DNA from: Candidatus Omnitrophota bacterium
GTDB lineage: Bacteria > Omnitrophota > Gorgyraeia > Zapsychrales > Zapsychraceae
Direction: 5' to 3'
NCBI GenBank assembly: GCA_015233115.1
Contig: JADFYJ010000005.1
Location: 86,359-150,358 of the forward strand
Length of the DNA: 64,000 nucleotides
In this document: in pieces, positions 31,117 through 63,706 of the stretch
How the letters are laid out: each line of letters starts with the position of its first letter
Position numbering within the stretch: position 1 is the stretch's first letter
Notes under the pieces: generated by a model
What the model saw: only the letters and a program-made list of their open reading frames with translations
What the model was told of the DNA's origin: nothing
The model's database searches: none
Made by a program: the position numbers and the translations under genes

Positions 31117-31172
31117 CAGTGTGACAATGCAAAAACGTTCTGCAGGGAAAAAGCGTTACATTGTTACTTTAC
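31094..31172. repeat. TGTGACAA 8-mer tandem array (4.5 units) plus inverted partial copy gttacattgttac between convergent lpxB and batE. Encodes the last residues and stop of both genes.
   Basis: aatgtgacaatgtgacaatgtgacagtgtgacaatg ... cgttacattgttactttac. Confidence 0.85.
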
Positions 31173-43424: not shown

Positions 43425-43446
43425 CCTTCGCCCTTTCACTGTTATC

Positions 43447-46019: not shown

Positions 46020-46093
46020 ATCTGTAACATACCAGAAACCGTAAACAAAAAAACCAAAAAGTAATAAAACTTTTTGGTTTTTTTATTTTATCA

Positions 46094-46165
46094 GGGCGGT
46101 TCGTAAACCGCCCATAAACAATCGCTTTTTCATTGTCACATTGTTACATTGTCACACTGTCACGC
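46094..46165. repeat. GC hairpin gggcggttcgtaaaccgccc, core caatcgctttttc, and R arm of TGTCACA type (attgtcacattgttacattgtcacactgtcacgc) after the PilZ gene stop
   Basis: Read from sequence. Confidence 0.75.
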
Positions 46166-46166
46166 T

Positions 46167-47276
46167 TTACTTTACAACCTGCACATCAATATTAACTTTT
46201 TTGCCGCTTTCTGTTTGTGATTGATTTAAATCCCCTGACTTGTAACGCCCTTCATCAACCTTGACAGCTTGCCCACCTTTAAACAAAAATCCATTATTTC
46301 CCAAAACCGTACGAGCATGATCGCGTTCGCGTAAGGCTTTATGTTGAATTTCGTCTGCATCTTGCTGAAATTTGTGGATCTTTGATTTAACTAATCTCAT
46401 CCGGTCTTTGTAAAGGCGAATGAGTTCTTTTCCTTCAGGAATATTATTGATTTCACCTTCGTAATAACGGACTTTTCCATTTAATGTTTCAACTTCAGTC
46501 GTTAATTTTGCGTTTTTCTCATTTAACAATGCCAGATTTTGGTTAAATTCTTCTGTTAATTTAGCATTTTGCTCGGTCATTTGCCGGACTTGCTCCTGCA
46601 GTTGAGTATTTGCTGTTTTTTCTTGAGCTAATTGCTGTTGGGCCTGCGCCAACATGGTTTGAGTTTCCGCGAGAGCCGCTTTCGTTGTTGCCAGCTCTTT
46701 AGTAACCACTTCCAATTGTTGTTTAGTTTCTGTATACAATTGATGATAAGTTTGGGTTAATTTTGTCTGACCATCAATCGCTACTGTTAAATTTTGAGTC
46801 GTCTTGTTCAAACTGTTGTAAATTGAACCGCTGGTCCATACTGAATAAACCACAATCCACGCTAAAAAAATTGACGCAGCAACATTTAAAACAATCAGCC
46901 AGCCGCGCATTTTCTTTTCTTTTTCAATACCATCTTGAACTCGGCGGCGTAACGCATTCGCCAAATCTTCAGAAACATTTTCAAACTTAATGCCCCAATA
47001 ATGTTTGCTGTCATTTTTAGGTTTTGACCAGATCACGCGTCCTTGAGATGGAACAACACCAAAATCCCCTTCCTTGGCACGAAAATTAAAATTCCCGTTC
47101 ATACTTGAATCGTGTGGGGCATCAGTCTCTAACAACATGCCGGACGCACTAATGTTGCGCATACTGCCTTTTCCCTGAGCCGCCCCGCCCTCTTGCGACC
47201 AAAGAATATCTTTTTTTTCTTTTACGCGCACATCCATACGCGACTCGTTTAAAATAGTACTGACACGATTTGCCAT
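46167..47276 (-). CDS. membrane-anchored PilZ-domain c-di-GMP receptor with long extracytoplasmic coiled coil
   Basis: Strong RBS aaggagg. N-terminal PilZ motifs RxxxR (SRMDVR) and N/DxSxxG (NISASGMLLE); one TM (LIVLNVAASIFLAWIVVYSVW); then about 150 aa Q/E/K-rich heptad coiled coil plus about 70-aa C-terminal domain. Confidence 0.7.
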   Translation of the reverse strand: MANRVSTILNESRMDVRVKEKKDILWSQEGGAAQGKGSMRNISASGMLLETDAPHDSSMNGNFNFRAKEGDFGVVPSQGRVIWSKPKNDSKHYWGIKFENVSEDLANALRRRVQDGIEKEKKMRGWLIVLNVAASIFLAWIVVYSVWTSGSIYNSLNKTTQNLTVAIDGQTKLTQTYHQLYTETKQQLEVVTKELATTKAALAETQTMLAQAQQQLAQEKTANTQLQEQVRQMTEQNAKLTEEFNQNLALLNEKNAKLTTEVETLNGKVRYYEGEINNIPEGKELIRLYKDRMRLVKSKIHKFQQDADEIQHKALRERDHARTVLGNNGFLFKGGQAVKVDEGRYKSGDLNQSQTESGKKVNIDVQVVK

Positions 47277-47475
47277 AGAATAAACCTCCTTAATTGAACT
47301 TAGGACATGTTCTTAATTCCAAAAACCTCTCAGATTAAGTGCGTGTCCCCATTAACAAACAGGGTCGACAAAAACAGATTATTTTTAATTGTCAAGTAAT
47401 TTTCGTATAAAAATAAAAGTTGGTGATTAAGTATATCCTATTATTTTCAATATGGCAAGTTTTTTGGCTTTTCTC

Positions 47476-49344
47476 TTATTTTAAAATTTTATCTAACAAT
47501 CCGTTAATTAAATCTTTGCCTGGCTTTTCATTTTGCGGCTCTGAAGTTGTCCCGGCTGGTTGAGCAGGCTGGCCGGAGGACTCTTGAGGATTTATTTTTA
47601 AAGCTTTATATATCAAGCCTTTAATTTCCTCTTTCCCTCTATTATTAATGTAGTTTTTAGCCACATCTTTCAAATCTGGAAAAATTTTAAATTTAACCGC
47701 TGGACCCTGATAAGGCTTAAATGGAAAATGCATGCGTCCATCTTGTTGCAATAAATATTTGAGATCTGGAGACGATCCTAATAATTCTCCTGACAATTCC
47801 GCATCCATATACATATCCATGGCAAAATTTAAATTTTGCGTGAGATCCATATCTCCGTTAAAATTCACTTCAAAGCCCTGAGCCTTGACCAAACCTTTGC
47901 TGAAAACCAATTTATTATTGGCAAATTGTAGATCTGAAGAAACCATTTCAAATTCCGTATCTTTTGAACCAAGATAGTTTTTATATTTTTCCGCAAGGTT
48001 AGCTTCTGCTTTAGCGCCCAAATTAGGAATAAATGAAACTTGATCCAACACGAATTTTAATAAATTGAAATCCAATATTTTCATGCCATCCACCCGCGCG
48101 TCGCCGTTAGCTCCCAAATTAGCAATTCCTACCCCGCTCATGGTCATTTTTCCGTTAATCTTTCCAGCTAATTTAAACGGCATTTTAAAAATAGACGTTA
48201 ATTCACCCAAATCAACCGCTTTTACTTCCGCGATTCCGCTTAACGTTTGCGTTTTTAAATAATCTTTTACATCTGCGTCAACAGTCACATGACCTTGAGC
48301 TAAATCCAGGGATACTTCTTTAACCAAGGCATCTTTTTCGTTCACTTCTGCCCTTAATTTAATATTTGAAATAGGATCTTTCAGCCATTCAGTCGCAATA
48401 CTGCCATCATCAATAGTAGCCCGGCTAACCAATTGGGATAAACCCTGCGGGCTTAAATCCAACGAATCCACATCAACCAGGGTCATCACTTTGGGACTTG
48501 CTTTCAGCTTAGCCGCGTCGATTTGTGGACACAATTTTTTTACACCGTCCATATCCAATTGACTCGAATCAATTTTAACTTTAATATTATGTAAACTGAT
48601 TTGACTCGTTTTTAAATCAATTTTAAACCCGCCTTCCGCCGAAACCAAAGGCTGTCCCTTAGTTAAAATATCCACACTCGCTTTAAATGGTACCCACTTA
48701 TCCAAACCAAAATCATTAACCTGAACATTAATATTATTAATCGCCAGCGCCAAAGGACCGGCGGTTTGTTTTTGCGCGTACAACACACTCCCATTGTCTA
48801 CTCTTATATTAGTAACTACGATATTAGGCATCGCGGCAGGAGCATTGGAAACATTTGTAGAAGGTTTGGTATTCGGCTGTGGCTGGCCCTGAGACTGTGC
48901 CTGCGACGGTACTGGTGTAGTTGGCTTATTATTCAATTGTTGCGCCAAATAAGTAAAATTATTCGAACCGTCTGCCAGCATAATAAAATGGATAACTGGC
49001 TTACTTAAAACCAAATGCGTCACAACTAATTGACGCTGAACAATCAAAGGCCAAATTTTAACACCCACTTCAACTGAATCTAGTTCAACTAAAAATGGAT
49101 TATCAAACAGTTTATCATCGGGCAGCTTAATCCCCTTTAACGCCAGCACAAACCCGTCTTTAAGCTTAAAATTCAATTCAATCTTCGACAATTCAATATT
49201 ACGCCCAACCGCTTCCTGAGCCTTAGCCACAATCACCGGTCTAAATTGATCAAAATTATAACACTTAAAAAAAACAAACAAGCCGGCAACCAAAACAACA
49301 CCCAATATGACCAAAACCCGTAAAACCATCGATAATTTTTTCAT
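47476..49344 (-). CDS. AsmA-family protein (AsmA/TamB-like envelope biogenesis)
   Basis: N-terminal signal-anchor (MKKLSMVLRVLVILGVVLVAGLFVF), then about 600 aa of beta-rich AsmA-like sequence with the family's N-terminal region (...RNIELSKIELNFKLKDGFVLALKGIKL...). Confidence 0.6.
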   Translation of the reverse strand: MKKLSMVLRVLVILGVVLVAGLFVFFKCYNFDQFRPVIVAKAQEAVGRNIELSKIELNFKLKDGFVLALKGIKLPDDKLFDNPFLVELDSVEVGVKIWPLIVQRQLVVTHLVLSKPVIHFIMLADGSNNFTYLAQQLNNKPTTPVPSQAQSQGQPQPNTKPSTNVSNAPAAMPNIVVTNIRVDNGSVLYAQKQTAGPLALAINNINVQVNDFGLDKWVPFKASVDILTKGQPLVSAEGGFKIDLKTSQISLHNIKVKIDSSQLDMDGVKKLCPQIDAAKLKASPKVMTLVDVDSLDLSPQGLSQLVSRATIDDGSIATEWLKDPISNIKLRAEVNEKDALVKEVSLDLAQGHVTVDADVKDYLKTQTLSGIAEVKAVDLGELTSIFKMPFKLAGKINGKMTMSGVGIANLGANGDARVDGMKILDFNLLKFVLDQVSFIPNLGAKAEANLAEKYKNYLGSKDTEFEMVSSDLQFANNKLVFSKGLVKAQGFEVNFNGDMDLTQNLNFAMDMYMDAELSGELLGSSPDLKYLLQQDGRMHFPFKPYQGPAVKFKIFPDLKDVAKNYINNRGKEEIKGLIYKALKINPQESSGQPAQPAGTTSEPQNEKPGKDLINGLLDKILK

Positions 49345-49429
49345 AAAATTCCCCAATCTTTTTTTACTATATTTGCAAAGCATAAAAGATAATTATTAAC
49401 ATTTTAAGGGTAAGCGTCAAGAAAAAAAA

Positions 49430-52400
49430 TTATTTAAGATATTTCCCGACATCTTTAAAAGTCGGGTCGATTTCGCGGATGGCGGAGAAAATGCGGCGGG
49501 ATTCAGCGGTGTTGCCTTTGGAGTTTAAATCCAGGGCTCTTTGATACATGCGGTCTAATTGGGAAGACAAATCCATTTGAACCTGTTTGCGGTCTACGTC
49601 AATTTCTTGCTGACGTTTCTTCATTAAATCCAATAATTGATCCCGTTGATCTTGGGCGTCTTGCAAATTGTTTTGATTTTGAATATCTTCCCGTTTAGCT
49701 TTGGGCTCGCCAGCAGCAAGGGCTTCGTTTGACTTTTGAATCTTTACGTCTTTTAAATTTACCGATTGTTCCAATTGACGTAAAGAGTCCCGGTCTTTTT
49801 GAAGTTGAGTTTCTTCGTGATTGATTTGTTTTTCAAGACGATCAAGATCCTGATCTTCTTTGTCTATCCGGCCTTGGTTATTTTTATCCTCTTTCCGGGC
49901 TTTTGCTGTATATTCGTTAATCCTTGTTTTATTCGCTTCCTTGACAATTTTCCGAATTTGCCGAGATTGTTGATCTACTTTTCGCTGCATATTCACGGTG
50001 AATTTATGATCCAAATTACCGTCGGCTAAAAGAGCATTGAGTACCCCAACTTTTTTCTCTGCCAACCTCACATCTTTTTGATCAACATAAGACAACAAAT
50101 CATTATATGCATCTGTCACATTGGCCTGTAAGTCTTTTTGAAGATCTACTTTTTCTTCAGCATGTTTAGCTATAGGAGCTTTTCCCATATTCACAGCCTC
50201 AGATAACTTAATCTTTTGAGCCGCTAATTTTCCCCGGATAGAATGAACAAAACGTTTATCAAGAGAAGGGTTAGCCAGCATCTTTTCCGTTTCATTAATT
50301 TTTTTCGATGCTAATTCGAGCTTTTGTTCATTGACCGAATCCACAACTTCGTCAAACTCTTGGCGCACATCATTTTGTAGATTGTTTTGGACAACAGCCA
50401 TTTTGACAGCATCGGACTGATCCGCTACCGTTGGTTCCGAAGCCGCCATCTTGGTTTCAGCAAACGATGCCATACCTGATGGTTTTAGAGGAACAACTTT
50501 TTTAACCTCCGGCCTGCTGACTGGTTTAGTAATTATTTCTTGAGTTTTATATTTTTCATCTGCTTCAACAGCTTTCAATACGTCATCACAACGCCGGATC
50601 ATTTTCGAAGCAGACTTATATCCAGGATATATTTTTTCTACTGAATTAAATTTAATCCGGGCACTTCTATAGTCACCCGCATTATAGGCTGACATAGCTT
50701 CTCTATATAAAACACCCGCGTCTTTCTGCCAACGTTTTAATTCAACAAAATCGGTTTTTTCTAACAACGAGTTAACTTTACTTTTTTCTTGCCGCAATAT
50801 TCTTTGCTGATTAGCCTCAGTTTCAATCTGTTTCTTTTTATAAATTTCAAGTTCCACCGCCAGTCTTCTGCGCTCTTCACTTCGATCATGCGCTTCAGCA
50901 CGTCGGATCTCACTTTGTGTTACCTGATTACCGCTGTCCTGAGGCTGTGATTTCGAGATCTGAGATGACGGAGAATTAACCACTTCCTCTTTTCTGGCTG
51001 GGACAATTTTTTCAACTTCAGCTGTTTTTTTCGCTTCTTCTACTAAATGGACAGCTTCGCGCTCATTTTCAGCTATTGCTAATTGTTGTTCAGCACAAAA
51101 TTCTGTCAATGCATCTAATTCCACGCTCATATCTTCTTCTATCAACTCCGGTGGTTCAGCCATATCTGGGACAGCATTAGTTAAAATATCGCGCTCAAGC
51201 GCTTTGGTTAAACGATTTTCCTCTTTAGATCGCAACTTGGCAACCTGCCCGTTATTACGTTCTTTGGCGTCAATTTCCTTTCGGAACTGGGCATACTGCA
51301 TATCCCGGATATGTTCCCGGGCATTTTCTTTCGCTTTAAGTGAAGCAATCTGAGCCACAGATCCTGAAACATATCCATCTAATTGTTCACGATCCAACCG
51401 ATGCTCTTCAGTCGCCTTGGTTTTTGCTTCATTGATTTGCTGTGCTTCAGCACGAATGGCCTGATTTATTTTACTAATATATTCATCAATATTTTTATGT
51501 CTGCCCGGGACTGTTGCTTTAGCTAAATAAAATTTCCTTTTCGCTTGAACAAATTGTGACGCATTGTAAAATTCAACCGCTTGATCAAAATATTTATCAC
51601 ATAATTTATCTGAGTCCATGACTTCCGACGTTTCCAGACTGCCCCTCTTATTTTCCACGATCTGGTTTTTAACTTTTTGCTGTTCTAAAGCAACCTTAAT
51701 CAATTCTAAATATCGTTGTGACGAGCGATATCCGGGACTTTTAAATTCAACCAGATTGAATTTTTCACGAGCGATTTCATATTCTTGAGCTTTATATAAA
51801 GAAACAGCTTCAAAATACATATTCTCAATATCTTTGTCATTTAACGATTGCGCGACCTGAGGTTCAGACAAAACCGACGGAGCACTGGTTGGAACAGATA
51901 CTGGAGGCAAGACCACCGGATTTTCCCCTGGCCGTGCCTTCTCTATATACTTCTTTTGTTTCTCAAGAAGCTTATCAATTTTGAGAAGATATTTTTCTGT
52001 ATCCCGGTAATTCGGTTTCATCGTATTCACATCTTCAAAAATTTTCTTTGACCGTTCGTACTGTTTAGCCCGATATAAATCAATACCGTGCTGATAAACC
52101 TTGTTCAATGACTGCGAATCAACATTAGTAAAATCATCGTGTTCGGAAATGGAATGAGAGGATGAAGCAACCGGTGGAACAGGATAATTTTGGTTGATCA
52201 CGGGCTTAACGCCTTTTTCTTTTCCAATGGTATCGTCAATCTTCTTCAAATATTTCGCGGTCTGTTTATACTGCGGACTTAAACGCTCGACCTGATTAAA
52301 ACGGGTCCGGGCTAAAGGATAATTCTTATTATCAAACAAAGAAACCGCGGTCGTATAAATCTCATCTATCTCTTTTTGAATGGCTAAGGGAATTTTAGCT

Positions 52401-54307
52401 TTAACGCCTTGTTCAAATTTATTTTTTTCCCACGCGCCTTTATTAACCTCAGGTTGAAATTGATTCGATTCCTCATCGATCTTTTTTAGATAATCAGCGG
52501 TATCTTTATAATTTGGGTAAACCGCTTCAACCTGAATAAATTTCCTTTTTGATTCGGAAAAATTATTTTCTTTAAAAAATTTTAACGCTAATTGATATTT
52601 TGTTTCCGCTTCTTCAGTGAACTTTAACTTGCGTTCCTCGATAGCTTTCTGTACAAACATATTCTCTGCTTGCGCGCCGGTCAAAACGGGAGAAACTTCC
52701 AGCCCTTTCCCGCCTTTTAAAGCTTTTTTATTTTGGCCGACCGCTTTATTCGTCTTAACCTCAGGCAAGTTAGGCTCATATCTAGCTTTTTTCAGGCTAT
52801 ATTCTGGCTTAACCGGAACCGGCACACCTGTCGCTTTGCTGATCAAGTTAAGATAATTATTGGTGGCCTTATAATTAGAATAAAGTTCCTTAACCTGCAA
52901 AAATTTTTCTTGCGCCAGAGCATATTTTTTCTGATCATAAAAACGCAGAGCCTCAATATAAAGCTTTTTGATTTCTTCCCCATTAGTCCGCAGCGATTCT
53001 TTATCTTCCCAATCTTGAATTTTTTTAAGGAACGAACGTGTCGCTTTATATTCCGGAGCAATCGCTTCTACAGAATCAAATTGAATTTTGGCCTTGGTAT
53101 ATTGCTGCAAATTAAACAAGGCAACAGCCCCTTCATAAATAAATTGGGCTTCATCATAAATACGTTTTTGAGTTTTCTCGTCAGTTAAAGCTTCTTGCTT
53201 CTCCTTAGTCGCTTCTTCCTGCTTATCATCAAGCCGCTCTTCACGGACTTGCTTTGAAAAGAAGGTAACCTTCTCATCATTCGTCAGAATTTTTCCATCC
53301 TGCGGTCCTTGCGCGTTTAATTTGGCCAGATACCGCTGAGTAAATTTATAATCCGGCACGATCCATTCCACTTCTTTAAACCGTTCTAAGGCCTGAGTAT
53401 ATTGTCCGATTTTATATAAACGGATCGCTTCCGTATAAAACTTTTCAGCTTGAACCACGGATTTATGCTGACGGTCTTTTTCTTCTGAGTCTATTTTTTT
53501 ACGCCACTCTTCTTTTTTCTTGCGGGCGGCATCCGTCTGATCTTTTAATTTTTTCTCGATGATCTGGGCTTGATCTTTTTGGATCTCCTGATCAATAACC
53601 ATGAGATAACTGCGGGCGGCTTTGTAATCCGGAAACATTTCTTCGACGGATTCAAATTGTTCTTTCGCGGGGAGATATTTGGCTTGTTGAAAAAGCTTTA
53701 CAGCAGCTTCATAAACTTTATCCACTTCCTTAGCACTAAAACCGCGTTCTTGTTCAAGTTGCTTTATACGGGTATTTTCTTCTTCAGCCAAAACTTTTTC
53801 TTGTTTTTTAAAACGGCTCGAACTGATCCCGATATATCCCTTCATTTCCGGATGTTCGGTAATCTTAATCGCTTTATCCCAATATTCGCGTGCCTGATCA
53901 TATTTGCCGTCCTCATAAAACTGCATAGCTTTTTGATAATACTCGCGGGCTTTTTCTTCGCGTTGTTGATTCCGCCGGAACTTAGCCTGTTCTTCCAGCT
54001 TCACATTAACTTTTTCAATCTTCGCTTTAGAACGTTTAATCAAATCTTTAATATTTACAACAAAACCATCTTCGGTTTTTTCTTCGCGCAAAGTTTTTTC
54101 TTTATTGATAAGAGCTGGTGCTAACGCGGGCAGAGTTGTTTTTTCAATAGACGAATCTTGCGGCTGGACTACTCCGGCAGGGGTCAGATCGGCAACAGCC
54201 GACGTCGAGGTTTTCGCGGCAGGCCCAGCGGCGAAAACTATCCTCGCCGAGAGCGTAAACGCAAACCCCAATGAAACGATCAATAAAGTGCGGTTGAGAC
54301 CTCTCAT
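49430..54307 (-). CDS. giant (1625 aa) secreted repeat protein: signal peptide plus at least 14 copies of an about 70-100-aa TPR-like unit with charged coiled-coil linkers
   Basis: SP MRGLNRTLLIVSLGFAFTLSARIVFA. Recurring unit such as YYQKAMQFYEDGKYDQAREYWDKAIKI / VYEAAVKLFQQAKYLPAKEQFESVEEMFPDYKAARSYLMVI / IYDEAQFIYEGAVALFNLQQYTKAKIQFDSVEAIAPEYKATRSFLKKI. Confidence 0.8.
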   Translation of the reverse strand: MRGLNRTLLIVSLGFAFTLSARIVFAAGPAAKTSTSAVADLTPAGVVQPQDSSIEKTTLPALAPALINKEKTLREEKTEDGFVVNIKDLIKRSKAKIEKVNVKLEEQAKFRRNQQREEKAREYYQKAMQFYEDGKYDQAREYWDKAIKITEHPEMKGYIGISSSRFKKQEKVLAEEENTRIKQLEQERGFSAKEVDKVYEAAVKLFQQAKYLPAKEQFESVEEMFPDYKAARSYLMVIDQEIQKDQAQIIEKKLKDQTDAARKKKEEWRKKIDSEEKDRQHKSVVQAEKFYTEAIRLYKIGQYTQALERFKEVEWIVPDYKFTQRYLAKLNAQGPQDGKILTNDEKVTFFSKQVREERLDDKQEEATKEKQEALTDEKTQKRIYDEAQFIYEGAVALFNLQQYTKAKIQFDSVEAIAPEYKATRSFLKKIQDWEDKESLRTNGEEIKKLYIEALRFYDQKKYALAQEKFLQVKELYSNYKATNNYLNLISKATGVPVPVKPEYSLKKARYEPNLPEVKTNKAVGQNKKALKGGKGLEVSPVLTGAQAENMFVQKAIEERKLKFTEEAETKYQLALKFFKENNFSESKRKFIQVEAVYPNYKDTADYLKKIDEESNQFQPEVNKGAWEKNKFEQGVKAKIPLAIQKEIDEIYTTAVSLFDNKNYPLARTRFNQVERLSPQYKQTAKYLKKIDDTIGKEKGVKPVINQNYPVPPVASSSHSISEHDDFTNVDSQSLNKVYQHGIDLYRAKQYERSKKIFEDVNTMKPNYRDTEKYLLKIDKLLEKQKKYIEKARPGENPVVLPPVSVPTSAPSVLSEPQVAQSLNDKDIENMYFEAVSLYKAQEYEIAREKFNLVEFKSPGYRSSQRYLELIKVALEQQKVKNQIVENKRGSLETSEVMDSDKLCDKYFDQAVEFYNASQFVQAKRKFYLAKATVPGRHKNIDEYISKINQAIRAEAQQINEAKTKATEEHRLDREQLDGYVSGSVAQIASLKAKENAREHIRDMQYAQFRKEIDAKERNNGQVAKLRSKEENRLTKALERDILTNAVPDMAEPPELIEEDMSVELDALTEFCAEQQLAIAENEREAVHLVEEAKKTAEVEKIVPARKEEVVNSPSSQISKSQPQDSGNQVTQSEIRRAEAHDRSEERRRLAVELEIYKKKQIETEANQQRILRQEKSKVNSLLEKTDFVELKRWQKDAGVLYREAMSAYNAGDYRSARIKFNSVEKIYPGYKSASKMIRRCDDVLKAVEADEKYKTQEIITKPVSRPEVKKVVPLKPSGMASFAETKMAASEPTVADQSDAVKMAVVQNNLQNDVRQEFDEVVDSVNEQKLELASKKINETEKMLANPSLDKRFVHSIRGKLAAQKIKLSEAVNMGKAPIAKHAEEKVDLQKDLQANVTDAYNDLLSYVDQKDVRLAEKKVGVLNALLADGNLDHKFTVNMQRKVDQQSRQIRKIVKEANKTRINEYTAKARKEDKNNQGRIDKEDQDLDRLEKQINHEETQLQKDRDSLRQLEQSVNLKDVKIQKSNEALAAGEPKAKREDIQNQNNLQDAQDQRDQLLDLMKKRQQEIDVDRKQVQMDLSSQLDRMYQRALDLNSKGNTAESRRIFSAIREIDPTFKDVGKYLK

Positions 54308-54365
54308 TTATTATTTAGTGTCTTCTTTTTATTATTATAAAAGATGGGATCCCCCAATTTTGTTT

Positions 54366-57300
54366 TTATTCTATCACACCCTTCTTAGCATCTTCCAGAA
54401 GTTTCTCTAATATTTTCTTAGCTTTTTCATATTGCCCAGTGCGGTAATAATCGTCTGCCTTTTGTTTCATATCCACCAATTGTTTTTCCTGCGCAACACG
54501 GGTCCGAATATAGGAAGCGGCCTCTTCATACATCATCTGCCCGGTTAATACAATGTCGCGATAGATATCGAAAGACTCTTCCCAACTGCCGCGATTGGCA
54601 GATTTTTGCGCTAATTTATAATAGGTGTTGAGCTCCTGCATAATAGGACTTTGCGGATTAGACAATTCCTGTTCAACCATGGCCCAGGCCCAATGACTAA
54701 TCTTTTCCTCAACCCAACGGTCATTGGAGCGGGCAATTTCATCCGGAGTCCGGTCATAAAATTTACCTGTCAGACGGACAAACGGGCCGCGAGACGCAAA
54801 GCTTAATGACGTAAGATCATCATTATAATCCGTAAAATTAAAGCCAACGCCTAATTGCGCGAAATCGTTCAACCGGCGTGCCGCCTCGATCAAGAAGCCG
54901 GATTTCATATCCCGTGATTCATGTTGAGCTAAAATCCTGAATTCTCCGCCGATCATCCAGTCGCGGTCAATCTTATAATTAATACGGTGAATCATCAACC
55001 ACGTATGGGTGTTAGTAAAATCAAATCCGGCCACTTTTTCCTTGGCCATCCGGTACGCGAATTTTTCTCCCACTTGCCAATGTTCGTCAATATCATACAA
55101 ACCTTCGGCGGAGAAAATATCCGCGATGCTCTGTTGAATATCCGAATTCGTAGCGTCCGCCTGACTGGCCGGAGACTGTTCTTCTTTGTGGGTCACTTCA
55201 CCAATCAAATTTAATTTATCCATCATCAAAGGACGATAGGCCGCGCCTAAGGTCACTTGATGCAGCATGGCGATCGTTCCCGTACCAATTGACGGGATAC
55301 CCGTTGAGGTTAAAGTTGTTTCCTGATCCATATTTTGGGAATTCGTATATTGCCCTTTCGCGTAAAGGGTCAATTCCGGCGACACTTTACCCTGCGCGGA
55401 GGCGTAAACCAAATATTGATTCATATCCGAACTTCCCGTATCCTTGCGGTATTCCGCTTTAACCGACGAGGTCAGCACTTTTTCTCCGGTCTGTTCATCC
55501 GCCTTCGCGTATCCAACACCGAGGGTATACGCGTCACGATCCGTGATTGTTCCGTTGTAATTCTGCACTTTGCCGCGTTCATAACTGCCCGACAGCGCCC
55601 AGCGATCACCAATATCCCCGGTTAAACCAAAAATATTAGACTGAGTAATGGAATCCGGCGCGTCCGCTAATTGACGGGTTAACGTTCCCTTTAAACGCAC
55701 ATTGTCTTTCTCCCGAACCAAACCGTATTCATCACCCGTCGACTTTTGACTGCCGGCTTGACCAAAAGACCGCGTCGTCAACATAGATACTTCACTGTTT
55801 AATTTCTTTTCTGTTCCAAACGTCAACTTAGTATCTTTGCCGTCACGCGTCGTATCGGCCACCGATATCCCGCTGGTCGTCGTCGTATTAGGATCCACTT
55901 GAGACCGCCCGCCAAAGGTCATCACCATATCCTGATCCAATGAATTCGTCGCGTAGGATAATTTCGACTCAACCGCACTGTCTCGATCGATTTGAGACTT
56001 GCCTCCAAAACTCACTAATTTTTTGGGTTCTTTATCCTGCAAATCTGTTAACCCCACATCTGTTTCGATTTTGTTTTTCTCATTCGGACTATATTCCGCG
56101 CCGACCGTGGCCTGATTCTGGCCCAAAGCCGTATTATACGTTTGCGAAGTGGCACCGGTAGACGTAGATATAGACGGATTAGCCGCGATATCATAATTAG
56201 CTTTTAAGACCAGCTTGCCTGCTGTGACCGACTTGTTGACATCATATTTGGCCGCCATTTGCGCGGAAGCGCCCATCTGGCCATTAGTATATTTTAGATC
56301 AACGGTGGTTTTATCAGTGGGTTTAATCGTGGCGCCGACAGTGTTTTGATCATTAGGCGTTCCGGATAAGGTCTGTTGTCGTCTGGCCATCACACTCAAC
56401 TTATCATTGACTTGATAATCAGCCTGAAACGCCAGCAGGGTCCCTTGGCCCGGAGAAGCAAAGGTGGTATCTCCTGGGCTTAAAGCATTGGCCGCTTGGT
56501 TAGAAAACTCAGCCGTCAAACGGAGTTTGCTGTTGACATCATGCACAATTTGCGCCAAGGTCGTCGTAGTCTTTTGCCCTCCGACCTGCAGTTTGGTTTG
56601 CGTGCTCCCTCCGTCTAGTAAAGTCTGAATATCATGCCGTAACCTTAAACGGGTATGATCCGTGATATCATACGTCGCGGCTAAAGAAACCAACTCTTTG
56701 CCTTGCTGGGCCGTCGAATCTGTGGTCGAGAAATTATTATCAATCCACCGATATGCGGCCGTCAGACCTAGACGGTTAAACAACGTCGCGTCGCCGGAAA
56801 TCCCATACGCTTTATTTTTAGATCCAGCTGGAGCGCTGACGCTCGTAAAGGATAAACCACCGTCCGTAGATAAATATGTATCCTGGGCATTGGATGTCGT
56901 TTCCGCGACCTCCGCTTTAACTTTGGCGTTATCGCCGACATGCAAGGTCGCGTCTGTGCCGGTCAATTGATAATTGCCGCCCTGTTGTTCTTCCTTGACA
57001 TATGTTTCCCCAATGATCAAATGATTTCCAATCGCTTTAGCCAGACGGGTTCCTTCGCTGGCCTCATTCATCGTGCCAGAGACGCTGTACGCGTAATCCG
57101 CGACTACATACACCAGGTTTCCGTCAAGAATATTATTCGACACAATCGATGTTGAGGTCACAATCTGCGGCACCGGCCGCCAGAATATAACCCGGCCGCT
57201 CGGATAATCAATATCATAGTCTGACCCTTCCTTTAAATCCTGAGTACTGACGACAACACCCGTCACGCGATCGCGGACTTCCGCGCGAATCTTGTCTGAA

Positions 57301-60300
57301 CCTTCCACGACTTCTTTATTTTTTAGATAATACAATGATGTGCCAGTGGCCAAAAATTCGTTATGCGCGGTCTTTTGATGTGCCTGTGCGTAAAACACCA
57401 CCGCCTTGGTATCAGGCTCGCCGAATTTGGTCGTTCCTAAAGATTCCAGATCCACCTTGCCGCCGTAATAACTCCGGGCAAAACGGGCAAAATCGGTATC
57501 TTTAAAATCAATTGAGTAATTGCTCCATTGGGCGCTGGATTTATCCCATTCCACCAATAAATATAACGGCCCTTGCGTATCCGTCGCTGAATAATTGATG
57601 GATGAATTGTCCCCATAAACCGGGTAGAATTTATCCGGATCCAATTTCTTGAATAAAGCGCTGTTTTGACGGTCGGTATCTAAACTTGATGTGATCAAAT
57701 ATTTCCCAAGAATTTTTCCCTTCAAATAGTACGCAGCCCGTCCCTGACTATACAAGCCGGTATTATATTGATCCGCCGGGCTGACCGCTTCCATATTGCC
57801 TTTGTTAAAATTATATCCGACTTTTTCATCTCCCATACCGACGAGAAACATATAATTTTCACCGACTCGCACATTTTTGACATACGTTTTCCCTCCGATA
57901 ACATTATCGCCCGGGGCAGCGGCCAAAGGAATTCCAGTCGGAGAAACCAGTGTCCCAGCCGGCAAAGCCGGTGCTCCGAGTGTTGGTATAACATTTACGG
58001 GTGATGCCCCTTCAGCCGGTACAGCGGGTATCCCTTCTTGCACCAGAAAATCATAATTTCCGTTAGGCATAATCAATCTGATCGTATTGATGTCGTCCGC
58101 GACTTTACCATTAAGAACATCCTGCGCTGTAACTTTTGTTCGCGTCGTTAAAGGCACATCCATTTCCAACCTGCCATCTTTTTTGATCTGGATCGACTTT
58201 AAGTTACCAGCCAATTTACTGATGACCACCATCTCTCCATTCAAACTAATGGACTGCTTGGCGAGATTATTTGTCTCCGACGCTTGCCGTACCCAATCCG
58301 CGTAATTCGTAGGATTCAGTTTTGTGTCAGCCTGAGTTTCTTTATCTAAGCTCAACTTGGTAATATCACGGGCATCCTCTTGTGCTTGCTTTTGCCGGGC
58401 AAATTCATCCACATCACGAAACACAATCGGACGAATCTTGGTTTCATCCGTACGGTTATGTTCGTCTTTCGCGATAAAATAATATTCATAATCTTTTTTC
58501 ACATCGATATACCGGCCCATTTGATCTTTCCCGTCCCAAAATATCGGATCATCTATCGTATACCGGTCGCCCTCGAATTTCTTGACCAAACTCTTGGTGT
58601 ATTTATCCTGGATAATTAATTTCCATTGACTGATAAAAAGCGGATAATTCGTGAATATCCTAAACTCTACTTTATTAAGGAATATTCCATCACGAATATC
58701 GATTTGATTGCCAAACATATCCGCGTTCAATAACGGCACTGGAACAGTCTGGTCTTTCTGAACTGTAACATTTTTCATAAAGAATTGCGCGTCGTCACTC
58801 TTGAACCGGCCATAATCCATGTTCACACCAAAATTCACTTTATTGATCATGCCGTTGGTCACATCAATAATGACCGCTTTATCTGTCGTCAAATACGCGC
58901 CTTCCGGTAAGGTCCGTTCATCCAAGCGAACCACGTGGCGTCCAGGAGTTAAGCCCGGAATACTAAACTGTCCATTTTTATCCGTCGTGATAACTGTACC
59001 GTCTTCCATGGCCAACGTCACATTTGGCACAGGCTCTTCACGGATCACGTCTTGACCCATAGCGGAATATTCCGGAGCATCTTGAATACCATTTTCATTC
59101 TGATCCCAGAACACTTTTCCGATAACAGTTCCCATATCGAACAACGGATCCATCGCCACTTTAATATTAACCCTGGAGGTATTGGATAATTTAGTACCAT
59201 TACGATAAACCGCTTGCGCTTTATTTTCATATGTTCCCGGAACCACTCCTGAACCAACCACTAATTGATATTTTAAAGTCCTGGCCATGCCGGGAGTCAT
59301 TTTATGATCAGCGTTACCGATATAAAACATCAAAGGCCGGTTCCCAATCGGGTCAGCCGTCGGAAGGCCGTCTAAAGTCACCCGACCCGGCAAGAATTTA
59401 AATCCAGGAGGTATGATATCTTTTAAATACGGGTCAATAATATCATTGCTGCTAATACTTTCCATCTTCACGGTGTAGGTCGCAACTTCGCCCACGTGAA
59501 TTTGATTTTTATTAACGGATTTCTCGATCTTAATCAAAGTACCCGCTGAATCCACCGGCATATCCAACTGCATCACATTAGCGCCGACAGTAAAATGTTC
59601 ACCCAATGACCCGGTTGCCACAGTACGTCCGGCAGGGAATGTCTTTTCAACGGATGGGAAGTCATACCCGTTCACTTCAACCTTAATGTAATAATCACCA
59701 GGGGCAGCCAGGAAACTATAATATCCGTCGGCTAAAGTCGTGACCGGATTGGTATCCGTCACAGATAATTCTATATTGTCAGTCTTAGCCGGTAGATTCG
59801 TCGCGGCATTATAAATAGTGACCACAGCGCCTTTGATCAAATGATCAGATACAGAATCAAAAACATACCCGAATGGATCAACTAAAGAAACTGTGATGAT
59901 CCGGCTCGCTACCCCATCGCTCACCGCAACCAATTTTATAGCCCCTCTGGTCAAATCTGTGGTCAATATACCAGAATATGCTGTTCCACCAGCATTCTTA
60001 ACCAAGCTTCCCACTTTTTGCAACAGCAAGTTATGGGCAGCCGCGTCATCTTGCGCCAAAATATCAACCAAAACTGACGGAGTATCCGCGTTACCTGACA
60101 CCACCGGCCTAGGACTATTGACGCGGTCTGCCATAGCTGGAGAAACAATGACCGGCACTTGCTCAACAGTCGGGTTAGCGACGACTACAATTGGACGGTC
60201 AATGTATTTGATAAAAGCACCAGGATTAATTGGATCCGGCGCGTATAGCCTGAGCGCGTTTGCTCCAACAGCTAACTGCATATTGGAATACAAAGCCTTG

Positions 60301-63536: not shown

Positions 63537-63541
63537 TAAGA

Positions 63542-63594
63542 AAATGTGACAATGTTAAAATAGTAATTGTCATCCCCGAGAGCTTGAATCGGGG
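63542..63594. repeat. TGTGACAAT inverted pair (atgtgacaatg...attgtcat) plus GC hairpin ccccga-gagcttgaa-tcgggg immediately upstream of the giant OMP gene start
   Basis: Read from sequence. Confidence 0.6.
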
Positions 63595-63706
63595 ATCCGT
63601 GGTTAAATATATTAGTAATATATTAATTATATACTACCAAATCACCACACCAGCTCAAGCACAGATTGAAAAATTTTTGCTTTTATTATATTAAGGAAGG
63701 ATTTTA

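What the first reader, a model, noticed from the sequence alone, without database searches (positions are those of the whole stretch)
49430..54307. 1625-aa secreted protein built from at least 14 copies of one TPR-like unit that also appears in the tail of the upstream OMP
The recurring unit (aromatic-x3-A-x2-L/F-F-x4-Y-x2-A-x3-F-x2-V-E-x3-P-x-Y-K-x-T-x2-Y-L-x-K-I) is separated by E/K/Q-rich coiled-coil linkers. One extra unit forms the C-terminus of the giant OMP. This suggests a periplasmic filament or scaffold that docks onto the OMP tail, or a gene family expanded by unit duplication.
Basis: seen in the sequence. Interest (0 to 1): 0.6.

Follow-up and report, generated by a model that had tools for sequence, protein, structure and literature searches.

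The report
Periplasmic TPR-bead protein partnering giant OMP
An exported 1625-residue protein from an uncultured Omnitrophota bacterium carries 12 small one-TPR-plus-cap-helix knobs on charged or proline-rich linkers, and it is almost always encoded right after a giant adhesin/beta-barrel outer-membrane protein whose extra helical tail occurs only where this partner occurs, which points to an undescribed cell-envelope module.

Summary
The ORF, its signal peptide and the internal repeat are real. I find 12 units (9 strong, 3 weak), not 14 or more. Each unit is one canonical 34-residue TPR plus a capping helix. AlphaFold models each as a confident three-helix knob with no fixed arrangement between knobs. 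The linkers are charged single helices or Pro-rich disordered stretches, not heptad coiled coils.

The upstream 3056-aa protein ends in about 45 beta-strands and a roughly 125-aa helical tail. That tail contains two TPR-like hairpins. Their similarity to the unit beats shuffles, but it is no better than that of ordinary TPR proteins in the same window.

The tail–partner link rests on context:
- The gene pair is adjacent in 57 of 58 Omnitrophota genomes.
- In metagenome loci, 19 of 21 tailed barrels are followed by a unit gene, against 0 of 38 tail-less barrels.
- One natural in-frame deletion fuses a barrel directly to its partner's rod.
- In Chlorobium luteolum a TolC-like outer-membrane protein with a unit-bearing tail precedes a relative of this protein.
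- Another relative has about 30 units fused to a TolC-like domain.

Orthologues carry 1 to 20 units. The best reading is a periplasmic tether or scaffold that docks on the outer-membrane protein's tail. The docking itself is untested. This is a new variant of a known kind.

The parts
49430..54307 (-). Gene for the 1625-aa exported TPR-unit ('bead-on-string') protein; identical to NCBI MAG protein HQL26_04185, Candidatus Omnitrophica
   Evidence: ORF list and translation; 100% identical database entry P0001
54230..54307 (-). Sec-type signal peptide (aa 1-26, cleavage predicted after VFA); no lipobox
   Evidence: Read from the sequence; hydrophobic N-terminal stretch; same feature in 60 of 75 orthologues by a crude test, and only 2 of 75 match a lipobox pattern
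53819..54085 (-). Conserved N-module (aa 75-163): amphipathic helix 'GFVVNIKDLIKRSKAKIEKV', an RRNQQREEK stretch, and unit 0, a canonical TPR followed by 'ITEHPEMKGYI'. It is the most conserved part of the family.
   Evidence: Pfam TPR_2 42.8 bits against a cutoff of 27 at aa 120-151. Invariant and near-invariant columns cluster here. An exhaustive search with aa 75-245 finds 448 cluster representatives, nearly always matching near the protein's N-terminus.
53576..53731 (-). Unit 1 (aa 193-244); present in every family member, including the short forms
   Evidence: 62.9 bits; position conserved at about 160-230 in all orthologues
53312..53452 (-). Unit 2 (aa 286-332)
   Evidence: 63.6 bits
53009..53155 (-). 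Unit 3 (aa 385-433)
   Evidence: 53.4 bits
52835..52978 (-). Unit 4 (aa 444-491)
   Evidence: 50.9 bits
52469..52615 (-). Unit 5 (aa 565-613)
   Evidence: 62.1 bits
52223..52375 (-). Unit 6 (aa 645-695)
   Evidence: 64.7 bits
51959..52108 (-). Unit 7 (aa 734-783)
   Evidence: 58.3 bits
51683..51832 (-). Unit 8 (aa 826-875)
   Evidence: 49.8 bits
51452..51598 (-). Unit 9 (aa 904-952), degenerate (PGRHK in place of P-x-Y-K)
   Evidence: 30.2 bits; 17.5 bits, iE 3e-7, with an HMM not trained on it
50573..50722 (-). Unit 10 (aa 1196-1245), isolated within the long charged C-terminal half
   Evidence: 55.2 bits
49433..49561 (-). Unit 11 (aa 1583-1625) at the extreme C-terminus, with a truncated cap helix; a terminal unit is conserved in the long-form orthologues
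   Evidence: 28.3 bits; last unit lies near the C-terminus in nearly all orthologues
49964..50392 (-). A second, different two-copy repeat (aa 1306-1365 and 1389-1448, 83-aa offset)
   Evidence: Dot-plot scores of 55-60 against a shuffle maximum of 53
54366..63536 (-). Upstream gene for the 3056-aa outer-membrane protein. Order of parts: signal peptide, Gly/Thr-rich N-terminal repeats, Big_6, CarboxypepD_reg, DUF11/CLIPPER and SpaA domains, a large beta-strand region, then a helical tail.
54747..57119 (-). Predicted large beta-barrel region of the OMP (about aa 2140-2930; roughly 45 modelled strands); ends with the 'LTGKF' beta-signal-like motif
   Evidence: AlphaFold2 model, mean pLDDT 65. 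Best Foldseek PDB hits are SlpA, LptD and TonB-dependent transporters, at probability 1.0 but TM <=0.2. Tail-less homologues from other phyla end exactly at '...NLIGKF'.
54369..54746 (-). C-terminal helical tail of the OMP (aa 2931-3056). It has four modelled helices and two TPR-like hairpins (aa 2967-2995 and 3018-3046). Among the barrel homologues examined it occurs only in the Omnitrophota-type loci that also carry the partner gene.
   Evidence: pLDDT 73-89, helices at 2931-2959, 2964-2981, 2985-3032 and 3036-3050; conserved in 7 orthologues; hhalign and shuffle control; generic TPR hits
47476..49383 (-). Downstream AsmA/DUF748-family protein (635 aa) with an N-terminal membrane anchor; the third member of the neighbourhood in most loci
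   Evidence: Pfam AsmA 54.7 bits and DUF748 53 bits; weak TamB/AsmA NCBIfam hits; hydrophobic segment at aa 13-45; present downstream in 37 genome loci
46167..47276 (-). Bitopic c-di-GMP-receptor-like protein (369 aa): cytoplasmic PilZ domain (aa 13-113), one TM helix (about aa 125-147), and a periplasmic helical region
   Evidence: Pfam PilZ 43.6 bits; hydropathy and sequence; conserved downstream in many loci

Best explanation
The 1625-aa protein is exported to the periplasm. There it acts as a long, flexible, multivalent tether or scaffold that works together with the giant adhesin/beta-barrel outer-membrane protein encoded just upstream.

Its conserved core is the N-module (an amphipathic helix plus one canonical TPR) followed by the first unit. 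I propose that this core docks on the two TPR-like hairpins of the helical tail that the outer-membrane protein carries after its last beta-strand. The last hairpin of that tail has no capping helix, so the partner could supply one.

The rest of the protein is a lineage-variable string of 1-20 single-TPR-plus-cap knobs. They are spaced by stiff charged helices or Pro-rich flexible linkers. This string would set reach and valency for contacts in the periplasm. The likeliest contacts are the AsmA-like and PilZ-TM-helical inner-membrane proteins encoded downstream, or peptidoglycan.

Shown here: the repeat anatomy, the export signal, the variation in unit number, the conserved synteny, the co-occurrence of tail and partner, one fusion variant, and the association of relatives with TolC-like outer-membrane proteins.

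Inferred: periplasmic location, the physical tail-to-N-module contact, and the tether or scaffold role.
For: (1) Anatomy. There are 12 units. The consensus from 661 copies is EEAEELYQEAVALYKKKKYEEAKEKFEEVEKLYPDYKSTRKYLKRIDKDI. It maps position by position onto a 34-aa TPR followed by one more helix. The best PDB sequence match is the last repeat plus solvating helix of designed CTPR proteins. In the AlphaFold2 model every unit is a three-helix knob with pLDDT above 90, while pTM is 0.28. In the N-terminal half helix C runs through the charged linker into helix A of the next unit, giving helices up to 71 residues long. The Pro-rich linkers are disordered.

(2) Export. The protein and its orthologues have a Sec signal peptide and no consistent lipobox.

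(3) Partnership. An ORF with the barrel and tail lies immediately upstream on the same strand in 57 of 58 Omnitrophota genome loci that have upstream DNA, and in 6 of 6 loci looked up individually. No terminator-like site lies in the 58-nt gap between the two genes.

(4) Tail and partner co-occur. Among 59 metagenome loci of the barrel family with at least 1.5 kb of downstream DNA, 19 of 21 tailed barrels are followed by a unit gene. The other two are followed by genes with only a weak unit match (L087: a short ORF with an N-module-like start; L105: a charged helical protein). None of 38 tail-less barrels is followed by one (Fisher p = 1.5e-13). A Brevundimonas homologue and two Omnitrophota paralogues that lack the TPR-like tail have no partner gene.

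(5) A natural fusion. P0080 is 70-81% identical to tailed OMPs of related loci. After 'FYDRTPEEIAR' it continues into the partner's charged rod (68% identity over 142 aa, E 7e-39). At DNA level this is an in-frame 1260-bp deletion that removes exactly the OMP tail and the partner's signal peptide, N-module and unit 1.

(6) The same plan on a different outer-membrane fold. In Chlorobium luteolum DSM 273 a relative (E 2.5e-26, N-module aligned) is encoded straight after a NodT/OEP-like lipoprotein. That lipoprotein has a C-terminal extension carrying a near-full unit (18.3 bits, HMM positions 2-43) plus a second hairpin. The pair sits between a 6678-aa adhesin gene and membrane-fusion-protein genes. 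In P0188 about 30 units are fused to an OEP domain in an RND efflux operon.

(7) Short forms show what is dispensable. They consist of the N-module, 1-3 units and 300-450 aa of almost pure E/R/K/Q helix. This shows that the core is the N-terminus and the remainder is a spacer.
Against: No interaction was tested, and multimer modelling was not available.

The tail's sequence similarity to the units is no better than that of generic TPR proteins, so sequence alone does not link tail and partner.

The co-occurrence statistics are not phylogenetically independent. Tailed barrels are essentially one clade (Omnitrophota), so co-inheritance could produce the pattern.

The fusion variant is one low-coverage metagenome contig.

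One genome locus (L064) has the partner gene without the OMP upstream.

No peptidoglycan-binding or other known effector domain was found in any family member screened, so the far end of the tether is unknown.

The barrel model is of only moderate confidence (pLDDT 65), and its closure and topology were not verified.
Confidence: 0.5

Rival explanations
1. It is a dedicated periplasmic assembly factor or holdase for the giant OMP. On this reading the TPR knobs bind unfolded beta-strand or beta-signal segments of the 3056-aa client, as BamD's TPRs bind beta-signals. With the TamB/AsmA-like protein downstream they help insert the unusually large barrel. The tail would then be incidental, or a handle for the chaperone.
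For: Weak, below-cutoff matches to BamD (TIGR03302, 44.8 bits) and to the LcrH/SycD TPR chaperones (54.4 bits). An AsmA/TamB-like gene is conserved downstream. The tight client-factor gene adjacency fits.
Against: The curated cutoffs are missed by a wide margin (81.4 and 104.8 bits), and the hits reflect generic TPR similarity. Unit number ranges from 1 to 20 while the barrel length stays similar. The fusion variant, and the relatives fused to or adjacent to TolC-like proteins (which are not beta-barrels of this kind), point to a stable structural attachment rather than transient chaperoning.
Confidence: 0.17
2. It is the TPR scaffold of a synthase-dependent exopolysaccharide secretion system, like AlgK/AlgE, BcsC, PgaA or PelB. 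On this reading the barrel is the porin, the PilZ-TM protein is an Alg44-like c-di-GMP-activated co-polymerase, and the neighbouring deacetylase modifies the polymer.
For: The neighbourhood holds a PilZ-TM-periplasmic protein, a membrane-anchored polysaccharide deacetylase and a large GH149-like protein, and this order recurs in many loci. A glycosyltransferase-like fragment lies upstream at the window's end.
Against: No membrane-embedded GT2 synthase is present in the conserved block. The gene upstream of the OMP varies between loci. Housekeeping genes (YgjP, YqeY) interrupt the block. Distant loci keep the OMP-partner pair but lose the deacetylase and the GH149-like gene. The OMP carries about 2000 aa of adhesin-type domains. 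No BcsC, PgaA or AlgK family hits were found.
Confidence: 0.08
3. It is a generic periplasmic TPR protein of the CpoB/YbgF or 'TolA-binding' type, with a general envelope role. Its adjacency to the OMP would reflect frozen gene order within one phylum, not a specific partnership.
For: Some databases name orthologues 'TolA-binding protein' or 'BamD'. The tail similarity is generic TPR. The co-occurrence is confounded by phylogeny.
Against: No tol-pal genes are in the neighbourhood and no CpoB model was hit. The pair survives where the rest of the neighbourhood changes. The arrangement 'OM protein with a TPR-bearing tail followed by an N-module/unit protein' recurs in a different phylum on an unrelated OM fold. 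There is also a barrel-to-rod fusion.
Confidence: 0.15
4. It is a surface-exposed or secreted cargo that crosses the outer membrane through the giant barrel (two-partner-like secretion) and forms part of the adhesive surface layer.
For: It has a signal peptide, a low-complexity modular build that could be threaded, and adjacency to a very large barrel.
Against: The OMP tail follows the last beta-strand, so by the established topology of BAM-inserted barrels it is periplasmic. Relatives are fused to the ends of TolC-like proteins, and those ends also lie in the periplasm. In the fusion variant the rod is attached at the barrel's C-terminus. No secretion motif or TpsA-like TPS domain was found.
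Confidence: 0.07

Closest known systems
Tetratricopeptide repeat (TPR) proteins, specifically the last repeat plus solvating helix of designed consensus TPRs (CTPR2/3; PDB 1na0, 1na3, 8bu0)
   Same: Each unit maps onto the 34-residue TPR consensus (small residue at position 8, Ala at 20, aromatic at 24, Pro at 32) and is followed by one capping helix. The best PDB sequence match is exactly the terminal repeat plus solvating helix. Unit 0 passes the Pfam TPR_2 cutoff.
   Different: TPRs normally occur as three or more directly adjacent repeats that form a superhelix with a ligand groove. Here single repeats are isolated by linkers of 15-340 residues. The model has pTM 0.28, and Foldseek matches to TPR solenoids have TM below 0.1. 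The units also carry their own strongly conserved P-[DGN]-Y-K-x-T-x-x-Y-L-x-x-I signature.
CpoB (YbgF) and BamD (YfiO), periplasmic TPR proteins of the Gram-negative envelope
   Same: They are exported TPR proteins that act at the outer membrane, and CpoB combines a helical N-terminal region with TPRs. Database names for some orthologues use these labels.
   Different: They are 5-10 times smaller and have contiguous TPR domains. BamD is a lipoprotein. The NCBIfam BamD score of 44.8 is far below its cutoff of 81.4, and no CpoB model was hit. There is no tol-pal or bam gene context.
OmpM/SlpA-type outer-membrane tethers (Deinococcus SlpA, PDB 8ae1)
   Same: A very large OM beta-barrel joined to a long periplasmic helical stalk. 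SlpA is the top Foldseek hit for the barrel model. This is a functional analogy for a barrel-anchored periplasmic spacer.
   Different: In SlpA/OmpM the stalk is an N-terminal trimeric coiled coil ending in a peptidoglycan-binding SLH domain, all on one chain. Here the helical part is C-terminal and mostly on a separate protein, has no heptads and no SLH domain, and the structural match has TM of only about 0.19.
TPR-plus-porin proteins of synthase-dependent polysaccharide secretion (BcsC, PgaA, PelB; AlgK with AlgE)
   Same: A periplasmic TPR scaffold coupled to an OM barrel, with PilZ and deacetylase genes nearby.
   Different: Those TPR domains are contiguous and lie N-terminal to a 16-18-strand porin. 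No synthase and no family hits were found here, and the barrel here carries about 2000 aa of adhesin domains.
TolA domain II, TonB, and ER/K single alpha-helix spacers
   Same: Long E/K/R/A-rich helices and Pro-rich stretches in periplasmic proteins, thought to act as spacers that span the periplasm. This comes from my own knowledge of those proteins. The short-form relatives are mostly such sequence, and linker 241-288 has 0.27 opposite-charge pairs at i/i+4 per residue.
   Different: TolA and TonB are anchored in the inner membrane and end in a globular domain. This protein has a cleavable signal peptide, TPR knobs along its length, and no TolA or TonB homology.
LapA/LapE-type giant-adhesin systems with c-di-GMP control
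   Same: A giant surface adhesin held at an OM channel, with an inner-membrane c-di-GMP receptor encoded nearby. The Chlorobium relative sits in an adhesin/OEP/MFP cluster.
   Different: There is no LapD, LapG, ABC transporter or retention module here. In Omnitrophota the adhesin is fused to its own barrel. This is an analogy only.

Membership tests
TPR repeat (Pfam clan TPR; TPR_2 PF07719) | 34-residue helix-turn-helix motif that matches a curated TPR model above its gathering score | tested here: met
   Unit 0 (aa 120-151) scores 42.8 bits against a cutoff of 27. The other 11 units do not reach any Pfam TPR cutoff individually (best is TPR_6 at 18.8, below 26.3). Their 661-copy consensus nevertheless aligns position by position with the TPR_2 consensus (my own mapping), and AlphaFold2 gives A/B helices.
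TPR repeat (Pfam clan TPR; TPR_2 PF07719) | Three or more directly adjacent repeats packed into a right-handed superhelix | tested here: not met
   Units are separated by 15-343 residues. The model has pTM 0.28 with disordered or single-helix linkers. Foldseek hits to TPR solenoids have TM 0.06-0.09.
BamD/YfiO (TIGR03302) | Score above the curated cutoff; lipoprotein signal peptide; about 240 aa with 5 contiguous TPRs | tested here: not met
   44.8 bits against a cutoff of 81.4. No lipobox: the signal peptide has no Cys, and the only Cys residues are at aa 903, 1071 and 1240. Length is 1625 aa.
CpoB/YbgF ('TolA-binding protein') | Match to the YbgF model; encoded in the tol-pal cluster; coiled-coil N-domain plus C-terminal TPR domain | tested here: not met
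   No YbgF/CpoB model among the NCBIfam or Pfam hits. The neighbours are the OMP, AsmA, PilZ, YgjP and YqeY, not tol-pal.
Type III secretion class II chaperones LcrH/SycD (TIGR02552) | Score above cutoff; about 160-aa cytoplasmic three-TPR protein in a T3SS locus | tested here: not met
   54.4 bits against a cutoff of 104.8. The protein has a signal peptide, is 1625 aa long, and has no T3SS genes nearby.
Synthase-dependent EPS secretion scaffold (BcsC/PgaA/PelB/AlgK) | Contiguous TPR domain coupled to a 16-18-strand porin; an adjacent inner-membrane glycosyltransferase synthase | tested here: not met
   No family hits. No synthase in the conserved block, and the gene upstream of the OMP varies. 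PilZ and deacetylase neighbours are present.
Outer-membrane beta-barrel protein (for the upstream 3056-aa partner) | Signal peptide; amphipathic beta-strands forming a closed barrel; C-terminal beta-signal ending in an aromatic residue | tested here: inconclusive
   A signal peptide is present. About 45 strands are modelled at mean pLDDT 65. Foldseek gives probability 1.0 to SlpA, LptD and TonB-dependent transporters, but TM is 0.2 or lower. Tail-less homologues end at '...NLIGKF'.
OmpM/SlpA OM-tether family | N-terminal SLH domain plus trimeric coiled-coil stalk plus C-terminal barrel | tested here: not met
   No SLH domain in either protein. The helical part is C-terminal. No heptad pattern was found.
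AsmA-like family (for the downstream 635-aa neighbour) | Match to AsmA/DUF748 above the Pfam cutoff; N-terminal membrane anchor | tested here: met
   AsmA 54.7 bits (cutoff 29.8) and DUF748 53 bits (cutoff 50). A hydrophobic segment starts at aa 13. The NCBIfam equivalog scores for AsmA and TamB are far below their cutoffs, so it is a family member but not an orthologue of either.

The most novel reading that the evidence does not exclude
The OM-protein tail and the N-module/unit string form a portable, split TPR-array connector. A short TPR-bearing tail on an outer-membrane protein (a beta-barrel adhesin in Omnitrophota, a TolC-like channel in Chlorobium) would be completed by the N-terminus of a separate string protein. 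That string's knobs and rods would then reach inner-membrane partners (the AsmA-like bridge, the PilZ-TM c-di-GMP receptor, or membrane-fusion proteins). The result would be a new kind of envelope-spanning coupling device, able to put display or anchoring of giant adhesins under c-di-GMP control in these ultra-small, possibly host-attached bacteria.
Probability: 0.2. Interest if true: 0.75.

Novelty: new variant of a known kind. Interest (0 to 1): 0.58.

Why it matters
Omnitrophota are an uncultured phylum of very small cells, suspected to live attached to or preying on other microbes. Their large surface proteins are thought to mediate attachment, but how those proteins are held in the envelope is unknown.

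This work defines a gene pair conserved in 57 of 58 Omnitrophota genome loci examined, often followed by an AsmA-like gene and a PilZ gene. It gives the first handle on that question: a giant adhesin fused to a very large barrel, plus a periplasmic string protein of an unusual build (isolated single TPRs with a cap helix on charged rods).

The same string family sits next to, or is fused to, TolC-like channels in other phyla, including the cultured Chlorobium luteolum. That suggests a general, undescribed accessory of outer-membrane channels, and one that can be tested experimentally.

The isolated TPR-plus-cap unit is also of interest for repeat-protein folding, because single TPRs are not normally expected to be stable on their own.

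Tried and rejected
- BLASTP self-comparison gave no off-diagonal hits because of HSP culling. I replaced it with a window dot plot.
- Foldseek on both models gave only generic matches: large barrels with TM 0.2 or lower, and TPR solenoids with TM below 0.1.
- A search with the N-module alone in the word-indexed protein database returned only 3 fragments. The exhaustive search was needed.
- An alignment of all 75 homologues failed internally, so I used 41.
- I looked for informative domain fusions among 105 further relatives. Only P0188 (OEP domain) was informative. P0152, which carries a helicase C fragment, is a short protein and I did not follow it up.
- I tested whether tail hairpin 2 is specifically of the 'unit 0' type. 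It scores 14-18 bits in some lineages, but ordinary TPR proteins in the window score 15-17 bits, so this is not specific.
- Literature searches on Omnitrophota giant proteins found nothing on this gene pair. A search on Chlorobium adhesin clusters found nothing relevant.
- DNA tandem repeats in the gene: none.
- The coiled-coil reading of the linkers is rejected for lack of heptads.
- The exopolysaccharide-secretion reading was considered and ranked low for lack of a synthase and because of the variable flanks.

Full report
**What is at the coordinates.** ORF 49430-54307 on the minus strand encodes 1625 aa. It is identical to a hypothetical protein of a Candidatus Omnitrophica MAG (HQL26_04185). 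The N-terminus is a Sec-type signal peptide (MRGLNRTLLIVSLGFAFTLSARIVFA|AG) without a lipobox, and orthologues have the same kind of N-terminus. Directly upstream, after a 58-nt gap with no terminator-like site, lies ORF 54366-63536, which encodes 3056 aa. Downstream come an AsmA/DUF748 protein, a PilZ protein, YgjP, YqeY, a polysaccharide deacetylase and a 1129-aa GH149-like protein.

**The repeat is real, but there are 12 copies.** An HMM from 9 obvious copies recovers them at 60-73 bits. It also finds three copies it was not trained on: aa 123-141, 907-949 and 1587-1625, with iE between 3e-5 and 3e-7. A deeper HMM built from 661 distinct copies in orthologues finds the same 12 and no more. 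A 40-residue BLOSUM62 dot plot has a maximum of 104, against 53 in 20 shuffles, and 65 window pairs exceed every shuffle. The dot plot also reveals a second, unrelated two-copy repeat at aa 1306-1365 and 1389-1448. There is no DNA-level tandem repeat. Unit-to-unit identity averages 35%, so the copies in this genome are old.

**What a unit is.** The 661-copy consensus is EEAEELYQEAVALYKKKKYEEAKEKFEEVEKLYPDYKSTRKYLKRIDKDI. Y7, A10, L13, Y14, A22, F26, P34, Y36, K37, T39, Y42, L43 and I46 are each conserved in 70-98% of copies.
- Positions 3-36 align residue by residue with the TPR_2 consensus (this mapping is my own).
- The K-x-T-x-x-Y-L-x-x-I segment is one further helix.
- The best PDB sequence match is the last repeat plus solvating helix of designed consensus TPR proteins.
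- Only the first, canonical copy passes a Pfam TPR cutoff (TPR_2, 42.8 bits).
- AlphaFold2 on aa 90-960 with 41 homologues (mean pLDDT 79.7) models every unit as helices A, B and C at pLDDT above 90, but pTM is only 0.28.
- In the N-terminal half, helix C continues through the charged linker into helix A of the next unit, giving helices up to 71 residues long. The Pro/Ser/Thr-rich linkers are disordered.
- The linkers show no heptad pattern.
- Foldseek matches to TPR solenoids have TM below 0.1.

The protein is therefore a string of isolated single-TPR-plus-cap knobs. It is not a contiguous TPR superhelix and not a coiled-coil filament.

**The upstream protein.** After a signal peptide it has Gly/Thr-rich repeats and then Big_6, CarboxypepD_reg, DUF11/CLIPPER and SpaA domains. 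CLIPPER is described as an isopeptide-bond domain (PMC12617251).
- AlphaFold2 on aa 2050-3056 (pLDDT 65) gives about 45 beta-strands followed by four helices at aa 2931-3050, with pLDDT 73-89.
- Foldseek's best PDB hits are large outer-membrane barrels (SlpA, LptD, TonB-dependent transporters), at probability 1.0 but TM 0.2 or lower.
- Homologues of about 1150-1200 aa (one from Brevundimonas, the others unnamed) end exactly at '...NLIGKF', a typical beta-signal. The Omnitrophota proteins continue after 'LTGKF' with 'YDRTPEE...' and about 125 more residues.
- In Brevundimonas the adhesin-type repeats are a separate 2832+-aa gene directly upstream of the barrel gene.

Calling it a giant OMP is reasonable, although I could not inspect barrel closure. 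The tail is an addition seen only in the Omnitrophota-type loci. By the established topology of BAM-inserted barrels it should lie in the periplasm.

**Is the tail 'one more unit'?**
- Profile-profile comparison of the 7-sequence tail alignment with the unit alignment gives two matches: aa 3018-3046 (probability 89%, score 31.7) and aa 2967-2995 (57%, 24.4). No column shuffle out of 200 reaches either score.
- Both matches confidently cover only unit columns 1-29, the A/B hairpin.
- Ordinary TPR proteins elsewhere in the window (31156-31926 and 33902-34882) score 13.5 and 8.3 bits against the unit HMM, while the tail scores 4.1 bits.
- Pfam TPR_2 hits the tail at 19 bits.
- A 'unit 0' HMM gives 14-18 bits on the last hairpin in some lineages, but ordinary TPR proteins give 15-17 bits.

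The tail is TPR-like and its similarity is above chance. Sequence alone does not show that it is the same unit.

**Evidence that the two proteins belong together.**
- All 75 homologues from the first search that carry an organism name are from Omnitrophota. A scan of GTDB species genomes gave 59 loci, again Omnitrophota-type MAGs. A few carry other labels on short or automatically named bins.
- An ORF with barrel and tail lies immediately upstream on the same strand in 57 of the 58 loci that have upstream DNA. The exception is L064. An AsmA-like gene follows in 37 loci and PilZ in many.
- A metagenome scan with the barrel alignment gave 80 loci. Among the 59 with at least 1.5 kb of downstream DNA, 19 of 21 tailed barrels are followed by a gene with at least one strong unit. 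The remaining two are followed by genes with only a weak unit match (L087: a short ORF with an N-module-like start; L105: a charged helical protein). None of 38 tail-less barrels is followed by one (Fisher p = 1.5e-13). This statistic is not phylogenetically independent.
- Within the phylum, two barrel paralogues that lack the TPR-like tail (P0080, P0082) have no partner gene downstream.

**A natural fusion.** P0080 is 70-81% identical to the tailed OMPs of loci L078, L082, L089 and L090. After 'FYDRTPEEIAR' it runs straight into sequence that is 68% identical over 142 aa (E 7e-39) to the charged rod of those loci's partner proteins. At DNA level this is a 1260-bp in-frame deletion relative to L090, with about 11 bp of overlap at the junction. 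The deletion removes exactly the OMP tail and the partner's signal peptide, N-module and first unit. That is the outcome expected if those parts exist only to join barrel and rod non-covalently. The evidence is one contig at about 6x coverage, so it needs read-level confirmation.

**Variation in the family.**
- Long forms have 4-20 units. The first three units sit at about residues 160, 260 and 360, one unit is terminal, and the middle arrays are variable, some with a 63-aa period.
- One orthologue has a unit pair that is 98% identical.
- Short forms (380-730 aa) have a signal peptide, the N-module, 1-3 units and 300-450 residues of almost pure E/R/K/Q helix.

The conserved core is therefore the N-module plus unit 1, and the remainder is a variable spacer. 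An exhaustive HMMER search with aa 75-245 finds 448 cluster representatives at E <= 1e-3 (181 at E <= 1e-10), nearly always matching near the N-terminus.

**Relatives outside the phylum.**
- P0153 is WP_011357132.1 of Chlorobium luteolum DSM 273 (E 2.5e-26). Its N-module aligns over 76 aa, including '...NPEMKSYI'.
- It is encoded straight after a NodT/OEP-like outer-membrane lipoprotein. The pair sits between a 6678-aa adhesin gene and three membrane-fusion-protein genes plus an HExxH intramembrane protease.
- That OEP protein has a C-terminal extension with a near-full unit (18.3 bits, HMM positions 2-43, aa 515-556) and a second hairpin at aa 579-598. This is the same tail plan on an unrelated outer-membrane fold.
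- P0188 has about 30 units at a period of about 59 aa, fused N-terminally to an OEP domain, in an operon with a membrane-fusion protein and two RND pumps.
- P0083 is a barrel of the same family with a bona fide TPR_12 domain fused at its C-terminus.

Unit strings thus recur as periplasmic appendages or neighbours of outer-membrane channel proteins.

**Interpretation.** The best-supported reading (about 0.5) is a periplasmic tether or scaffold. Its N-module would dock on the OMP's TPR-like tail, and its knobs and rods would provide reach and valency toward inner-membrane or cell-wall partners. The AsmA-like protein and the PilZ-TM-helical protein (PilZ at aa 13-113, TM helix at about aa 125-147) are the obvious candidates.

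The rivals are listed here, with details in the rival section:
- a dedicated assembly factor for the giant barrel (0.17);
- a generic envelope TPR protein whose synteny is merely frozen (0.15);
- an exopolysaccharide secretion scaffold (0.08);
- a surface cargo (0.07).

The protein is not a member of the BamD, CpoB, LcrH/SycD, BcsC/PgaA or OmpM families. The curated cutoffs or defining features were tested and not met.

**Novelty.** I found no description of this gene pair or of the unit in papers on Omnitrophota giant proteins, and no Pfam or NCBIfam model captures the unit. I class it as a new variant of a known kind: the motif is TPR, and periplasmic TPR scaffolds are known. The isolated single-TPR-plus-cap bead architecture and the tail-plus-string arrangement appear to be undescribed.

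Noticed in passing
window 49964-50392 (-), aa 1306-1365 and 1389-1448 of the 1625-aa protein: A second two-copy repeat unrelated to the TPR unit (e.g. VRQEFDEVVDSVNEQKLELASKKINETEKMLANPSLDKRF against VTDAYNDLLSYVDQKDVRLAEKKVGVLNALLADGNLDHKF). Dot-plot scores of 55-60 are just above the shuffle maximum of 53.
   Followed up: partly
window 46167-47276 (-): The 369-aa neighbour has a cytoplasmic PilZ domain, one TM helix and a long periplasmic helical region. This resembles the PilZ-TM-periplasmic plan of Alg44 (my recollection of that protein) and is a candidate c-di-GMP input to the envelope module. It also has a weak NCBIfam similarity to IcmG/DotF.
   Followed up: partly
L069 (contig of P0080) compared with L090 7905-9164: An in-frame 1260-bp deletion fuses an OMP barrel directly to its partner's E/R/K rod, with about 11 bp of junction overlap. 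The rod DNA is more similar between contigs (87-89%) than the barrel DNA (75-81%).
   Followed up: partly
L150 (Chlorobium luteolum DSM 273, CP000096 392583-418288): The cluster runs: 6678-aa adhesin, NodT-like OEP with a TPR-unit tail, 1901-aa unit protein, three membrane-fusion-protein genes, a daptide-type HExxH/M50 intramembrane protease, then another TPR protein and a TolC. No ABC transporter was seen in the stretch examined.
   Followed up: partly
L151 10001-17221 (P0188): A 2406-aa protein with about 30 single-TPR-plus-cap units at a period of about 59 aa, fused to a TolC-like OEP domain and followed by a membrane-fusion protein and two RND pumps.
   Followed up: partly
It occurs either fused to adhesin-type repeats or as a separate protein of about 1200 aa directly after a giant DUF11/SdrD_B/SpaA gene. 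This may be an undescribed way of anchoring or exporting giant adhesins.
   Followed up: partly
P0083 (1251 aa, partial, 'bacterium'): A barrel of the same family with a genuine TPR_12 domain fused after the last strand. This is another lineage in which a TPR domain is attached to the barrel's C-terminus.
   Followed up: no
window 40137-43526 (-): A 1129-aa protein with a partial match to GH149 beta-1,3-glucan phosphorylase (E 1e-38, far below the curated cutoff). It is conserved downstream in many Omnitrophota loci as a protein of about 1090 aa with no Pfam hit.
   Followed up: no
window 54001-62000 compared with 46001-54000: G+C is 44-47% across the OMP gene but 37-39% across the TPR-unit and AsmA genes. 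AT skew on the + strand is strongly negative (-0.17 to -0.19) over the TPR-unit gene, which reflects its Lys/Glu-rich coding strand.
   Followed up: no
window 63537-64000 (-): The C-terminal end of a glycosyltransferase-like protein (…PVISTDFGVFPETVVHGKTGF…) lies upstream of the OMP. The gene in this position differs between orthologous loci (a TPR protein, or proteins with fibre-like repeats).
   Followed up: partly
L016, L017 and others, L050, L055: Several loci with full Omnitrophota-type synteny carry other organism labels: Candidatus Elulimicrobium, 'uncultured Planctomycetales', Lysobacterales, Elusimicrobia. These are probably placeholder names or mis-binned contigs.
   Followed up: partly
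L064 1-3764: The only genome locus where the partner gene is not preceded by the OMP. Three ORFs without Pfam hits (416, 322 and 312 aa) lie upstream on a 4.8-kb contig.
   Followed up: partly
L004-L007 and many loci: A thioredoxin-DsbH/SPATA20-like gene of 650-750 aa is often inserted between the TPR-unit gene and the AsmA-like gene. It is absent from this window.
   Followed up: no
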